Shown here piece by piece: positions 1 to 6,000 of a stretch of 64,000 nucleotides of DNA; position 1 is the first letter of the stretch; the number at the start of each line of letters is the position of its first letter. Where the stretch lies: assembly GCA_037379345.1 (NCBI GenBank), contig CM074517.1:43380500-43444499 (forward strand). The letters run 5' to 3'. A program made the position numbers. The stretch is from Perna viridis. Its lineage: Eukaryota.

Positions 1-3000
1 TACAGTTTTAATAAAGAGTTTAGTGTTGTTGAACTGATTTTGCCGTTATGAGTATCTAATAATTGGATCTCAATAAACAATTGTCAGTCTTTTGAATGAA
101 GAAACATACATGTAATCATGCCTGTTAACCTGTGGGGTTATTCTCCTCAATTGCTACTGTCCTATGTTGGAAATTTTAATGTCAAAGCAAACTTTGGGTG
201 TAAAAATTTAATTATTTAGTATTTTTTACAGTAAGTTTAGTAATTTAAACCAGGAACTTCCCACAAATCTTACATTACTATGTGGGAGATTCTAATTTCC
301 ATTGAATTTAAAGGATTCTCCCCTAATGTGAGAGGGTTAACAGGTATGTTCATATGACAACAGAGAACTTATGTCAGTTTTATTTTACCTCACATTTGGG
401 TGAAGTAAAACAGAAATTTATTAACTACCAAGAGAGCTCACAAAGAAAACACCTCTCCCTTTTTCCATTTAGTTGAACTTCAAACATGTAGGACGAATAT
501 GCTAGATTTGTCCTTTTGAAAACAATTTTCAGTCTCCTCCTTCATGCTCAACTAAATATGATGGTTAACCTGCCTGTAAAACTGTATCACAGTCCATTGA
601 GTCTTTTATCATGTAAAAAATCTTATTTTTTTGGATTATCTCCCTTTGTAGGGTTTGAACATATTTTTCAACTGTCAGGGAATAGACTAACAGACAGACA
701 CACAATTTTTTGGAGGATATCACATAAAACCTTGCCACTTCATGAGGCAGGGTATAAAAATAAAACAAAAAAAAATAAAAACACTTGAAGTTAAAAGAGT
801 TTACTTTTTCACAATTTCTCATTTATACAATTGTCAGTTTCATAGAAGCATTTGACAGACTTAAATGGATCTTTGACTAAATATATGTCAAAGTCAATCA
901 TATTTCACAAGTCACAATCTTATATTCAAGCACAACTTTAACAAGTCTCAATTACATGTAACTGGATTTAAAATCTATCAACACTTTCACAAGTCATGAC
1001 CGCACATCACTACACAAAAATATCACTCACTACTCCCAAAATCACATGAATAATGTAACAATCACAAACCTTCAATCACTCATTAATTAAGAAAGTTGAC
1101 AACTGGTTTATAATACAGATACACAATGACATGATCAAATGTCCCTAGCAATCTTATGACTGCCTATAGCCTCTCAATTATGATCGGGCATATGAAACAT
1201 TGATAGCAATAAAACAATGCACCAGAGACCATGTATTTGTTATTGCCTTGGTGAGGTATTTCAATACTATCCTTTCTCTGTAGAATTTTCTACTCTCTAG
1301 GGCATAAAATTCTTTATTTTTCTAAGCTTTATACTACAACTAGTTCATCAGATCAAAATCGTCCCTCTGCAAATAGAAAATAACACAAGAGTTTGTCCAT
1401 ATACTGGTACTCAAAATTACTAGAAGAATAGCAGATATAGCAACATGTTATGTTTCAAACATCAAGTCACACTTAATTAACTATACAAACAGCAGAGCTT
1501 TTTTGTGTGGATTTCAATGGTACAAAGAAAACCACAACAGGCATGTATCTAGACTCTATAATGCAGTATCAATCAGGAAGAATGTAACTTCAGAAATTCA
1601 CCAAATATTTTTTATATTGTGAATTATGCAACTGTGCTGCACAGAAATACCAACAATTGTTCATAGCTAAGTTTAATATAATTCTTAATTGGCAAAATAC
1701 AAAATTTAAGACTCAAATGCTGCCTTGCACCTACATATTTTTCTCTAACTGTTAGTGCACAGATTTTTTTTTCAAACCTGGATAAAGTTACACAAACTGG
1801 TAGTAAACTGTAAACGGATAGTGGCATTCATTAAGACTCAAATAAGACCAAGTGATGCAAGTTCACCTTGGTGTCCACGACACACAGAAAAGACTTTAAT
1901 CTGCTAACTGTAGAAGCAATATTTGCATCTAAGCACACACTTAAATTAAGGTCCAAAAGAAGACAATTTCAAATTCTAATTTCCTGAGACATAAAACAAC
2001 AACAATATATACAAACCAGTTCATTATATTCAAGCACTTGTTTTCTAATAGCTGAAGTATCTGTCCATGTGATGAAATCCTCCATATTTCTGAAAAATAT
2101 ACAGATGAGAAGAACGAGCCTATATTGCAATGTCAATCTGTTCTGTAACAGATTTCTCCACTTTTCTCAGAGGGAATGGTTAGATACAAGTTCTATTGTT
2201 TTAGCATGATGACAAGTATTTTGCCATCTCTTTCCGGGTTCTTCAATTATCTACTTCTGTTTCAATGTATGACTTTTAACTTTTTAAGGTGATACAAAAT
2301 GGAAATTTTTGTAATAGATTTCCCAGCTTCTTAGTACCGGTACATGTTATTTTGGTTATTTTTATGTTCTATGTTGTGCATGTCCATTTTCCCATTCTAA
2401 TCTTTATCCTTAGACTATATTCTTTTGACTTCTGTTCCCTTGATTACTTTTTTCTATTGGAAGGTGCACTTACATACTTGGCATATTGCTTATGCATGAT
2501 GACTTGTACTATGTCTCCCCTTTCAAGGTCCTCGCTTAATTTGACAGAAATGGTCGAGTGAATGTTTTCTTAGCCAGATGTAGCATGCAAGATCTTGTTT
2601 TATTTGTGGTCAACAATGCAATTCTCTAAGTTGAGTATAGTATGTAGATTGTTGAAATCAAGACTTTGAATAATAAAAATTATTTTTTTCTCTTCAGTAG
2701 GGAACAAAATATGTGCAAAAGTACTTTCACAGTTTTCAAATTTGTTAGGGCTAAATAGCACTATATAAGGTAAACAAATATTTCTTCTGAGTCTCCTACT
2801 AAATTGTTAATATTGTTTATCTGTTAAAATCTATATTTACCTTGTTACTAGGAAGGCAGGATCTGTGACAACTTCAGGACCAACTCTTACATCTTCATAG
2901 TGTTAAGGAAATTCTAGATTGATTTACAGCAAAAATAATGCAATACTAAGTAAGTAAAAATTTTCGTAAATGAATATTTTTTAAGAGCAAAAATTATAAT

Positions 3001-6000
3001 TCAAAAAATAATCTCTGCATCAATGTACTAAAATTATACAAAAAGGAAGACAATACTACATGAATCGTGAACAAAGAATTCCTAAGAAATATGATATATA
3101 TTGAAATCTGCATCTTAATTTTAGCTGATTCAAATTTTCTTTTAGTTACACAAAAATATAGTCAAAATTATACCTTTCACCAATTTCTATATTTCTATAC
3201 GATGTACATGTATTACATGTAACAAAATTAATACAAAAAGCTTCTTGCACATTTTTAAAAATTTGTATACAAGAATTTCAAACTTCACAATTTTGCCTAC
3301 CTTAAGATTTAGTCTATAACTATAAAATTCTGTTCTAATTAAAGCTTATTGAAGATTAATACAGTCATTTGTAACCCAAGAACAATGAAAAAAACTGAGC
3401 AATACTCATTAACTTGACACCCCCCCCCCCCCGATCCCCCATTTGATAACATGCCCCTTTTGACCTCCATATTGACATGGATTAAAACTTTAAATAGAGG
3501 TGCACAAAGGGAATATGTAATAAAGATTCTGTGAAAGGGGGGGTCAGGGATTAAAGTTTGATCCCCCCTATGTAACTAAAGAAAGGACAGAAGGAAAGAC
3601 ACCCCCATCACTATAAAATGCTCACTTGCAATGTGGGGGTATAAAAATCAGCAATCCTTAGAACCATAAAAAACTATTACTTTGATACCTAGATTTAAAA
3701 CTATCACTATATACCCCCACTTTGCAAGTGTGTGTGTGGGGGGTATAAAAAGAAAGGAAATCTTTATAGCACCACCATTTATATATTGTGCCCTACTATG
3801 TAACTTGAATTACTAATGGCTGCTTTCTCCAAGTAAATTATAGGATCTAACACAGTATTTAAAGGTTACGTCCTTGTTCTACAAATGTTGTGGCTGCCTT
3901 CATATTCTCTGACATGTGGTTTCTCACCATAATAACAGGTAAACGTCGTCTTAAACAATAATTTTGATGTAAAACAAAATAATGATAAACAATTCTTCAA
4001 ATTTTTCAGGCTAAATGTTTCATGTACATGTACTAAAACAGTGACTTACTAATCTATCCAAAAACTTTAATAATTCTTGATATGAAGAAAACCTTTATTA
4101 TAATTAAAAGCCTTTTCTCTCAAATATATTTTTGTGTTACATAGAAACAGCTGCACTTATTTTTCATACGGAGTTATCTCCCATTGCATACAGCAATCAA
4201 ATAGTTTGACCAGGAAATTCTGCCAGCTTACCGACAAAATGATGTAGCATTCACTGTATCAGCCAGTGATAAACTTCTCTTGGTTGGTACCAGTCCCATA
4301 CAGTGTCTGAAAAATATGACACATACATTAACAAACTGACAAATCAATTTCGTAATGCATCATATTAACAACTCCCTCCAATGAAAGCCAAAATTTGACA
4401 ACTTTATTCATAGGTATTAAAGTTTTAAGGTTTGTCAATATTTCATTAGTGCAGGATATTGAAGACTTTGTAGACTTCATTAGTCCAACTATGCTATTGA
4501 TAAAAATGTTACACTTTAATTTGAAATTGTGTTCTGACTGAAACAGGTACCAGTACCCAGAAAAATGTAGCTGTTCCACAGAACAATCGAAACAAAGTGG
4601 ATTTTGTAGACGTGTCATACGCTATTTGAGAAGGAAGGTCACATTCACATGAAACAGTACTCAAAAGATTTCAAACATTTTTGCCTTGTCAATTTATATC
4701 AAGGCATGCCATCAAGAATAATGTTTACAGTGACATTTTCATGTGTAAAAGTGAATTGAGCTTTGCTAGTCAAATACTACTGAGTAGGCTTTGTTGATTG
4801 AATGCTGTAATTACTGCATTTCAAATTATTTTTAAATGTTATAATATAGCTATTTACCTAACAGTTTTATAATTGAGTTGGCAGATATCCAAAAATTTTA
4901 AACCACTTTTTGAGAGAACAAAAAATTATTAAGTTCATTTAGAGGACCAATTTGAAATTCATAAAACAATCAAACAATGTCTAGTAGAAAAAAGGTTTGC
5001 TTTTATTTGTACTAAGAATCTAAACAGATAGACTTAACCAGACAAACACAGCATGAGTAAACCATTCAGATTCTACAGAATTCATTCACCCTCCTGTGAT
5101 TCTGAAAGTGTGTCAGTCACGCGTCAGTTACATAACATTGTAAACAATAACCACAATGACATTGCATTGTAGGAAAAACAAACTGCCATATTCCTGTCAC
5201 ACTCAATTTTTCATAACAATACTAAACATGTTTATCTCGACATTTCATCAAGGTAAACAACCCCCCATCCCCCTTAAACAGCTTAGAAATTGCACATGGT
5301 TAACATATTTGAATACATACAACTTTACACAAAAGTGAATTAACAACAATTTTGGCACTGAATCATTTTGCTATAAACTCTTCAAAATGCCAACTTGATG
5401 ATTACAAAATCACAAGAATAGCGAGTTACTCATCGCTCTGAATTTGCCAATTTAGACATCGCTGTTTGATAGGGGAGGTAATTCAATTTTTATAAATTTC
5501 TCTGAATAAACAAATGGAAAAAAAAATTAAGTGATGTTCTATTTTTTTATACAACATACCCTTAATTTGCCCATCCTATGTCTCAACCTTGAGGTTGTTA
5601 ACCTTGGGCATGTAGTAAGAAAAAAATAGCTTAAAATATCAGTTAGTTACACACAAAAGATTAAACTACAAAGTACACTTAACTTTACAACAAACAAACA
5701 TTTTTCTAGCAACAGATATCTTCCACCACAATGCTTTTTACAAGGTCATTACTGATAAAATAGCCAAATGCAACTTGTATTGTTTTGATTTGAAAATGCA
5801 GCTGTTTTTGTAACACAGCTATCAAATTATCACAAAATCGCTTGATAACTGACGAAATCTGTAGGTTTCTTTAGCAGCTACAAGTCATGGTAAAGGAATT
5901 TGAACATGATTTCTCTACATTTCTTGCCTTGGCACATCATTAATTGAAATAAAACCTAGCCAGCTTTGTATAACAAAATCAAACACTTTCCTGCATTAAA

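What the first reader, a model, noticed from the sequence alone, without database searches (positions are those of the whole stretch)
2893..3869. IMP3 intron 4 has a minor-spliceosome 3' end but a hybrid U2/U12 5' splice site
Seen: the branch site is a perfect TTCCTTAAC, 9 nt from the exon, with no pyrimidine tract, and the intron is phase 1. The donor is GTAACCTTT. Established: the U12 donor consensus is RTATCCTTT with a nearly invariant +4 T, while U2 donors are GTRAGT. Here +1 to +4 look U2-like and +5 to +9 look U12-like. Inference: the intron is either a non-canonical minor intron or caught mid U12-to-U2 conversion. It splits the S4-domain QG(H)VRVG motif, so slow splicing could limit output of a ribosome-biogenesis factor.
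Basis: partly seen in the sequence, partly recalled or inferred. Interest (0 to 1): 0.72.

Follow-up and report, generated by a model that had tools for sequence, protein, structure and literature searches.

The report
Old minor intron, one changed base
Intron 4 of a bivalve IMP3 gene is an ancient minor-spliceosome (U12-type) intron that differs from its relatives by one base at the fourth position of its start, a rare variant already seen in another minor intron.

Summary
On the minus strand, intron 4 of IMP3 (3869..2893, 977 nt, phase 1, inside His134 of the S4 domain) starts GTAACCTTT. It ends with a perfect TTCCTTAAC, 9 nt before the exon, with no pyrimidine tract after it.

It is best read as a true U12-type GT-AG intron carrying one derived T>A change at +4, not as a U2/U12 hybrid. 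I searched the unspliced exon-4 reading frame against 1.84 billion proteins. Of 15 fragments from other animals that run from exon 4 into this intron, 12 continue R-I-L, which is what C|GT ATC CTT would encode. The window reads R-N-L. A control at the U2-type donor of intron 1 gave 9 different classes among 26 proteins.

The donor pairs poorly with the U1 5' end: -1.6 against -6.4 to -8.2 kcal/mol for the gene's other five donors. Position -1 is a C, the first base of the His134 codon. Mouse and rat Smyd2 already carry ATAACCTTT in an annotated U12-type intron.

Three things stay untested: whether +4A is fixed or an allele or error, which spliceosome is used, and any effect on IMP3 output. Interest is modest.

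The parts
2893..3869 (-). IMP3 intron 4, 977 nt, GT-AG, phase 1
   Evidence: Sequence read. Exon borders fixed by tblastn of named IMP3 proteins and by the reading frame.
3861..3869 (-). Donor GTAACCTTT: 8 of 9 positions match the U12 consensus RTATCCTTT
3866..3866 (-). +4 A, the single departure from the consensus. Orthologous read-through fragments have T here in 14 of 15.
2902..2910 (-). Branch site TTCCTTAAC. The candidate branch adenosines at 2904 and 2903 are at -12 and -11 from exon 5.
   Evidence: the only copy in the window. Distance optimum from PMC3584512.
2893..2894 (-). Acceptor AG, preceded by ACTATGA, with no pyrimidine tract
3870..3949 (-). Exon 4 (…RRLPVIMVRNHMSENMKAATTFVEQG, then the first base of the His codon)
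2841..2892 (-). Exon 5 (the last two bases of the His codon, then VRVGPEVVTDPAFLVT, then the first two bases of an Arg codon)
32063..32199 (-). Exon 1 with the start codon. Donor GTAAGTAAC.
   Evidence: Pfam Ribosomal_S4 N-terminal domain.
30037..30144 (-). Exon 2
4232..4306 (-). Exon 3
2017..2089 (-). Exon 6
1340..1366 (-). Exon 7, coding part with the stop codon

Best explanation
Intron 4 of this bivalve IMP3 gene is an ancient U12-type (minor-spliceosome) GT-AG intron, inherited from early bilaterians. In this lineage or allele its donor has one T>A change at +4.

Inferred mechanism:
- The U11/U12 di-snRNP still recognises the intron. U12 pairs with the perfect, correctly spaced branch site, and the U11 5' end pairs with the donor's +5..+9 (CCTTT), which match the consensus.
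- The +4 base lies in the part of the donor that is read by proteins and non-canonical RNA contacts at first, and that later meets U6atac. The change may cost some efficiency but should not move the intron to the major spliceosome.
- The major spliceosome has little to hold: a poor match to U1, C at -1 and at +5, and no pyrimidine tract.

Shown here: the sequence features, the conservation of the donor in orthologues, and the weak U1 match. Inferred: which spliceosome acts, and with what efficiency.
For: 1. Anatomy. The donor matches RTATCCTTT at 8 of 9 positions. TTCCTTAAC places the branch adenosines at -12/-11. There is no pyrimidine tract, the termini are GT-AG, and the phase is 1. Joint chance of branch-site position plus CCTTT at +5..+9 is about 1.4e-7 per intron.

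2. Orthologues. A phmmer search with the unspliced exon-4 frame gave 17 hits at E<=1e-3.
- 2 are spliced forms.
- 15 read on into the intron: 12 as R-I-L, 1 R-I-Q, 1 R-M-L and 1 R-S-L.
- R-I-L is what C|GT ATC CTT would encode. After these three residues the fragments are unrelated to one another.
- Their nearest named relatives are gastropods or bivalves, oysters, annelids, a tick (94%) and fish.

3. Control. Among the 120 proteins, 26 do not continue into exon 2 after exon 1. Their next two residues fall into 9 classes, as expected of a degenerate U2-type donor.

4. U1 match. The duplex with the U1 5' end is -1.6 kcal/mol for this donor, against -6.4 to -8.2 for the other five donors.

5. 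Exon side. -2/-1 is AC, not AG. GT-AG U12-type introns lack AG there (abstract of PMC10853781) and are biased against -1 G (passages of PMC7367187).

6. Precedent. Mouse and rat Smyd2 carry ATAACCTTT in an AT-AC intron annotated U12-type, where human, dog and chimpanzee have ATATCCTTT (Table 1 of PMC7367187).

7. Recognition.
- Positions -1..+4 are read by SNRNP48, SNRNP35 and U11 stem-loop III, and +5..+10 pair with the U11 5' end (passages of PMC11874965).
- U11 has few bases free for pairing, and that preprint's discussion infers that recognition rests mainly on the U12 side; the passage shown breaks off at 'U12' (passages of preprint 10.1101/2023.12.22.573053).

8. Molluscs keep most orthologues of human minor introns as minor introns (passage of PMC11347168).
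Against: - No RNA data, lariat data or snRNA sequences of this organism could be examined, so use of the minor spliceosome is inferred and not shown.
- The orthologue evidence is at the amino-acid level. Ile fixes +3 as A and +4 as T and excludes G at +5, and Leu allows CTN or TTR, so GTATCCTT is compatible but not proven.
- The query's own R-N-L tail could slightly favour hits of the form R-x-L.
- No fragment from a close relative (family Mytilidae) was found, so it is unknown whether +4A is shared or fixed.
- A single point mutation can switch intron class in minigenes, and rare introns use both spliceosomes (abstract of PMC10853781). Only about 55% of expressed annotated minor introns respond to minor-spliceosome inhibition (passage of PMC11347168).
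- No PWM or intronIC score was computed.
Confidence: 0.72

Rival explanations
1. The +4 A is not the species' fixed state. It is either a segregating allele of the sequenced animal or, less likely, a consensus error of the assembly. The usual donor would then be the canonical GTATCCTTT.
For: 14 of 15 orthologous read-through fragments have T at +4. No fragment reading R-N-L was found in any protein search. Bivalves are highly polymorphic (recalled, not from a call).
Against: The difference is a substitution in a non-repetitive context, not a homopolymer length error. The same +4 A is held in both mouse and rat Smyd2, so such a donor can persist. The protein searches rarely hold fragments from any one species, so the absence of R-N-L is weak evidence.
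Confidence: 0.15
2. The intron is in transit from U12-type to U2-type. The +4 A raises the match to U1 and U6, and the major spliceosome already removes it in part or in full.
For: +4 A is the U2 consensus base. Point mutations in GT-AG U12 donors can suffice for conversion (review PMC3584512, section 19; passages of PMC7367187). Intermediate intron classes exist, and a few sites use both spliceosomes (PMC11347168; abstract of PMC10853781). In a tardigrade the intron at the same position reads R-M-L, that is GTATG.., a U2-like donor. Conversion has therefore probably happened at this site elsewhere.
Against: The predicted duplex with the U1 5' end is -1.6 kcal/mol, against -6.4 to -8.2 for the other five donors. 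-1 is C, the first base of the His134 codon, so AG|GT cannot form without changing that residue. +5 and +6 are C. There is no pyrimidine tract, and the branch site sits 11-12 nt from the acceptor. The branch site shows no decay at all.
Confidence: 0.1
3. It is an ordinary U2-type intron, and its branch-site-like and donor-like words arose by chance.
For: TTCCTTAAC and GTAACCTTT are not enriched in the window as a whole.
Against: The joint positional chance is about 1.4e-7 per intron. The donor is conserved in orthologues of several phyla. The U1 match is weak and there is no pyrimidine tract.
Confidence: 0.02

Closest known systems
Canonical U12-type (minor) GT-AG introns
   Same: GT-AG termini, the donor words GTA and CCTTT, a perfect TCCTTAAC branch site 11-12 nt from the acceptor, no pyrimidine tract, a non-zero phase, no G at -1, and orthologues with a conserved donor.
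   Different: +4 is A instead of the conserved T.
Mouse and rat Smyd2 U12-type AT-AC intron with donor ATAACCTTT (Table 1 of PMC7367187)
   Same: The same +4 A in an otherwise consensus donor. It is also phase 1, and orthologues in other mammals have T at +4.
   Different: Its AT-AC termini make major-spliceosome use unlikely, whereas the intron here is GT-AG. It is a different gene in a different phylum. I saw only the table, not any splicing data for it.
'Minor-like' and 'hybrid' intron classes of Olthof et al. 2024 (PMC11347168)
   Same: These are introns whose splice-site scores lie between minor and major and which are discussed as conversion intermediates.
   Different: Minor-like introns are marked by AG at -2/-1, whereas this intron has AC. 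Class assignment needs that paper's PWMs and thresholds (its Supplementary Figure S4), which I could not see or compute.
The orthologous IMP3 intron in a tardigrade (isoform X2, P0003)
   Same: Same position and phase, after ...EQG.
   Different: It reads R-M-L, so the donor begins GTATG. That is U2-like, with G at +5, and looks like a completed conversion rather than a +4 change.

Membership tests
U12-type (minor) intron | Donor matching RTATCCTT(T) | tested here: inconclusive
   8 of 9 positions match and +4 is A. No PWM or intronIC score could be computed. A U12-annotated intron with the same +4 A exists.
U12-type (minor) intron | Branch site TCCTTAAC close to the acceptor (optimum 11-13 nt) | tested here: met
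   Perfect TTCCTTAAC at 2910..2902, with adenosines at -12/-11. Optimum taken from PMC3584512.
U12-type (minor) intron | No distinct polypyrimidine tract | tested here: met
   The only pyrimidine run is the branch site itself. There are 3 pyrimidines in the 9 nt before the exon.
U12-type (minor) intron | GT-AG or AT-AC termini, and no AG or G at -2/-1 in the GT-AG subtype | tested here: met
   GT...AG with AC at -2/-1. Rule taken from PMC10853781 (abstract) and PMC7367187.
U12-type (minor) intron | Orthologous introns of the same type at the same position | tested here: met
   12 of 15 read-through fragments continue R-I-L, compatible with GTATCCTT. The control donor of intron 1 is variable. 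This is amino-acid-level evidence only.
U12-type (minor) intron | Removal depends on U11, U12, U4atac and U6atac | not testable with these tools
   No RNA data were available, and there are no snRNA genes in the window (Rfam gathering search, 0 matches).
U2-type (major) intron | Donor complementary to the U1 5' end, usually with G at -1 and/or +5 | tested here: not met
   5 of 9 matches to CAG|GUAAGU. -1 and +5 are both C. Duplex -1.6 kcal/mol, against -6.4 to -8.2 for the other five donors.
U2-type (major) intron | Pyrimidine tract between branch point and AG | tested here: not met
Hybrid / minor-like classes (Olthof 2024) | PWM scores within that paper's class thresholds, with AG at -2/-1 for minor-like | not tested
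   The thresholds and PWMs are in supplementary figures that I did not see. AG at -2/-1 is absent, which argues against 'minor-like'.
IMP3 (U3 snoRNP protein, S4 fold) | Ribosomal_S4 N-terminal domain plus S4 domain, with full-length similarity to named IMP3 | tested here: met
   Exon 1 hit 777 proteins at E<=1e-3, and the listed named ones are IMP3. All seven exons align to Mytilus californianus IMP3-like P0006 at 77-100% identity. Pfam hits on exon 1 and on P0006. The exons were tested one by one, and the joined protein was not searched.

The most novel reading that the evidence does not exclude
The +4 A is fixed in this lineage and makes the intron a tuned, weakened minor intron. It would be spliced slowly or by both spliceosomes, so that retention of an intron inside the S4 domain gates IMP3 supply and with it small-subunit ribosome assembly. 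A variant of this reading is that this bivalve's minor spliceosome (SNRNP48, SNRNP35 or U6atac) has relaxed its reading of +4 genome-wide.
Probability: 0.08. Interest if true: 0.55.

Novelty: new member of a known kind. Interest (0 to 1): 0.3.

Why it matters
If +4A is real and fixed, this intron is a clean natural single-base variant of a deeply conserved minor-intron donor. The relatives keep T at +4, the branch site is perfect, and the exon side bars easy conversion. That makes it a handy test case for how much the +4 base contributes to recognition by the minor spliceosome, and for why phase-1 introns with a constrained -1 base resist class conversion.

The read-through trick used here also has practical value. 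It shows that the IMP3 intron after ...EQG is an old minor intron in many animal groups. Several public gene models drop or garble exons 4 and 5 at this intron. This does not change the current picture of splicing.

Tried and rejected
- Search for snRNA genes or any Rfam family in the window: 0 matches.
The 45-aa unspliced frame found nothing among proteins of 24-79 aa. Among longer proteins it found only 5 spliced IMP3s. No close relative reading R-N-L or R-I-L turned up.
- Pfam on exon 4 alone: no hit, because the piece is too short.
- Literature. 'U12-type intron' + 'IMP3' gave 0 papers. 'imp3' + 'minor spliceosome' gave 1 unrelated paper. The word GTAACCTT gave 705 papers, and the 15 listed were primers or unrelated. 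TAACCTT + 'U12-type' gave 2 papers, one being the Smyd2 table and the other a morpholino sequence. I therefore found no printed mention of an IMP3 minor intron in searchable main texts. Supplementary tables, where intron lists live, were not searchable.
- Supplements. The file list of PMC11347168 was shown. The request for PMC7367187 was answered 'closed', and I asked for no more. The PWMs, class thresholds and per-species intron tables that could bear on +4 frequencies and on IMP3 in other species stayed unseen.
- Orthologous DNA. Intron ends of other species could be inferred only from protein fragments.
- Canonical RTATCCTT words elsewhere in the window: 6 found with 5.82 expected. Nothing to follow.
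- Nested gene in the 25.7-kb intron 2: 12 long ORFs gave no Pfam hit.
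Full report
**What is there**

The window is AT-rich (about 32% G+C) and holds no N. Its minus strand carries a seven-exon IMP3 gene:
- E1 32199..32063
- E2 30144..30037
- E3 4306..4232
- E4 3949..3870
- E5 2892..2841
- E6 2089..2017
- E7 1366..1340

Exon 1 alone (46 aa) hit 777 proteins at E<=1e-3. The named ones among the 120 listed are IMP3, and the closest named ones include Mytilus californianus and Sinanodonta. All seven exons align to the Mytilus protein P0006 at 77-100% identity. 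The contig is therefore from a bivalve, probably a mussel relative, and I do not take it for human.

The exon lengths sum to 552 nt, that is 183 codons plus a stop, the length of P0006.

**The observation**

- The donor GTAACCTTT is at 3869..3861, with A at +4 (3866).
- TTCCTTAAC is at 2910..2902 and is followed by 9 nt, then exon 5.
- The intron is phase 1 and splits the His codon of FVEQG-H-VRVG.
- The Pfam S4 domain of P0006 covers residues 108-154, and the split codon is His134.
- The branch adenosines lie at -12/-11, inside the 11-13 nt optimum given by the review PMC3584512.
- The only pyrimidine run near the acceptor is the branch site itself.

The other five introns have donors GTAAGT (twice), GTAAGC, GTAAAT and GTTTGT. 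Four of them have T-rich tracts before the AG, and intron 3 has a weaker one.

The two 9-mers are not enriched in the window. Their placement is the significant part, at about 1.4e-7 per intron for both together.

**Relatives of this intron**

No eukaryotic DNA collection was available, so I used protein fragments that gene callers predicted from unspliced DNA. In phase 1 a canonical U12 donor reads C|GT ATC CTT, which is Arg-Ile-Leu. The window reads Arg-Asn-Leu.

A phmmer scan of 1.84 billion representative proteins with the 45-aa unspliced frame around exon 4 gave 17 hits at E<=1e-3.
- Two are spliced forms that continue ...EQG-HVRVG.
- Fifteen run on into the intron: 12 continue R-I-L, one R-I-Q, one R-M-L (a tardigrade isoform) and one R-S-L after an odd EQV.

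Beyond those three residues the fragments are unrelated to each other. Their nearest named relatives are gastropods or bivalves, oysters, annelids, a tick (94%) and fish.

Ile and Met codons fix T at +4, so 14 of 15 have +4 T.

As a control I looked at the donor of intron 1, which is U2-type. Of the 120 proteins, 23 lacked the exon-1 end motif and 71 were spliced. The remaining 26 continued in 9 different two-residue classes: stop x7, WV x6, YV x3, WE x3, YI x2, YY x2 and three singletons. A few of the 26 are exon-skipping isoforms rather than read-throughs.

The contrast shows that the first eight or so bases of intron 4 are conserved across phyla. That is the mark of a U12-type donor.

Caveats:
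- The evidence is at the amino-acid level.
- The query's own R-N-L tail may slightly favour R-x-L hits.
- No close relative of the window's species was recovered.

**Why not a U2/U12 hybrid**

- GTA at +1..+3 belongs to both consensus sequences, so the 'U2-like half' is one base.
- The donor matches CAG|GUAAGU at 5 of 9 positions, with C at -1 and at +5.
- Its predicted duplex with the U1 5' end is -1.6 kcal/mol, against -6.4 to -8.2 for the other five donors. The U1 motif was recalled, not taken from a call.
- GT-AG U12-type introns avoid AG at -2/-1, and one change at -2 can switch class (abstract of PMC10853781). Here -1 is the first base of the His134 codon, so G cannot arise there without changing that residue. 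This fits the conversion model of the intronIC paper, in which constrained -1 bases protect phase-1 and phase-2 U12 introns (passages of PMC7367187).
- A 2025 review states that -1..+4 are read by SNRNP48, SNRNP35 and U11 stem-loop III, while +5..+10 pair with the U11 5' end (passages of PMC11874965). +5..+9 are consensus here.
- A U11 snRNP structure preprint argues that U11 has little pairing capacity and that recognition rests mainly on the U12 side; the passage shown breaks off at 'U12' (passages of 10.1101/2023.12.22.573053). The branch site here is perfect.

**Precedent**

Table 1 of the intronIC paper lists the mouse and rat Smyd2 introns as U12-type, phase 1, with donor ATAACCTTT. Human, dog and chimpanzee have ATATCCTTT there. 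So +4 A is already on record in an annotated minor intron, held in two species. I saw the table only, with no splicing data for it.

Olthof et al. 2024 formalised intermediate classes (minor-like, hybrid) in 263 species. They report that most orthologues of human minor introns in molluscs are minor. Their thresholds are in supplements I could not see.

**Conversion at the same site elsewhere**

The tardigrade isoform reads R-M-L, so its donor begins GTATG, which is U2-like. A fish model (P0045) reads R-I-F. Models from an annelid (P0025), Mya arenaria (P0040) and Labeo (P0070) drop part or all of exons 4 and 5. Such breaks would be expected if annotation pipelines stumble at a minor intron, though I did not test the cause.

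**Verdict**

- Most likely (0.72): an ancient U12-type intron with a derived +4 T>A, still removed by the minor spliceosome.
- Rival (0.15): the A is an allele or an assembly error.
- Rival (0.10): partial or full use of the major spliceosome.
- Rival (0.02): chance.

The claim about limiting IMP3 output is untested. One passage of the intronIC paper also notes that later work found the excision rate of U12-type introns to differ less from that of U2-type introns than once thought.

I recall that the human IMP3 gene has no introns, which would explain its absence from human minor-intron lists. This comes from no call.

The finding is a new member of a known kind, and interest is modest (0.3).

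Noticed in passing
window 4307..30036 (-): IMP3 intron 2 is 25,730 nt long. It holds tandem arrays at 11107-11215, 15628-16270 (44 nt x 14.7) and 17396-17718. Twelve long ORFs inside it gave no Pfam hit.
   Followed up: partly
window 51770-52069, 53829-54071, 58847-59128 (+): Three ORFs with Pfam EGF-domain hits (E 1.8e-07 to 5.5e-09). These look like exons of a multi-EGF gene on the other strand. The gene was not modelled.
   Followed up: partly
window 49391-50237: A minisatellite with a 16/32/48-nt period, about 53 copies of the 16-mer. It opens long repetitive ORFs without Pfam hits.
   Followed up: no
window 3623-3643 / 3710-3730 and about 3420-3432: Intron 4 holds a 21-nt inverted repeat (95% complementary, 66 nt apart) and a long G run. 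This looks like a small inserted element. It has no bearing on the splice sites.
   Followed up: no
proteins P0025, P0045, P0040, P0070: Public IMP3 gene models of an annelid, two fishes and Mya arenaria lose or garble exons 4 and 5 exactly at this intron. This is probably annotation failure at a minor intron.
   Followed up: partly
protein P0003 (tardigrade isoform X2): After ...EQG it reads R-M-L, so the intron at the same position starts GTATG. This looks like a completed U12-to-U2 conversion at this site in tardigrades.
   Followed up: partly
protein P0135 (annelid-like fragment): It reads ...EQV-R-S-L instead of ...EQG-R-I-L. It is the only read-through fragment without T at +4. The border may be shifted in that lineage. 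Unexplained.
   Followed up: no
window 23021-23029 (-): A second GTAACCTTT lies inside intron 2. Together with the donor, this count is within the chance expectation (2 found, 0.93 expected).
   Followed up: no
window 53127-53359: A 71-nt tandem repeat of 3.3 copies, lying between EGF-type ORFs.
   Followed up: no
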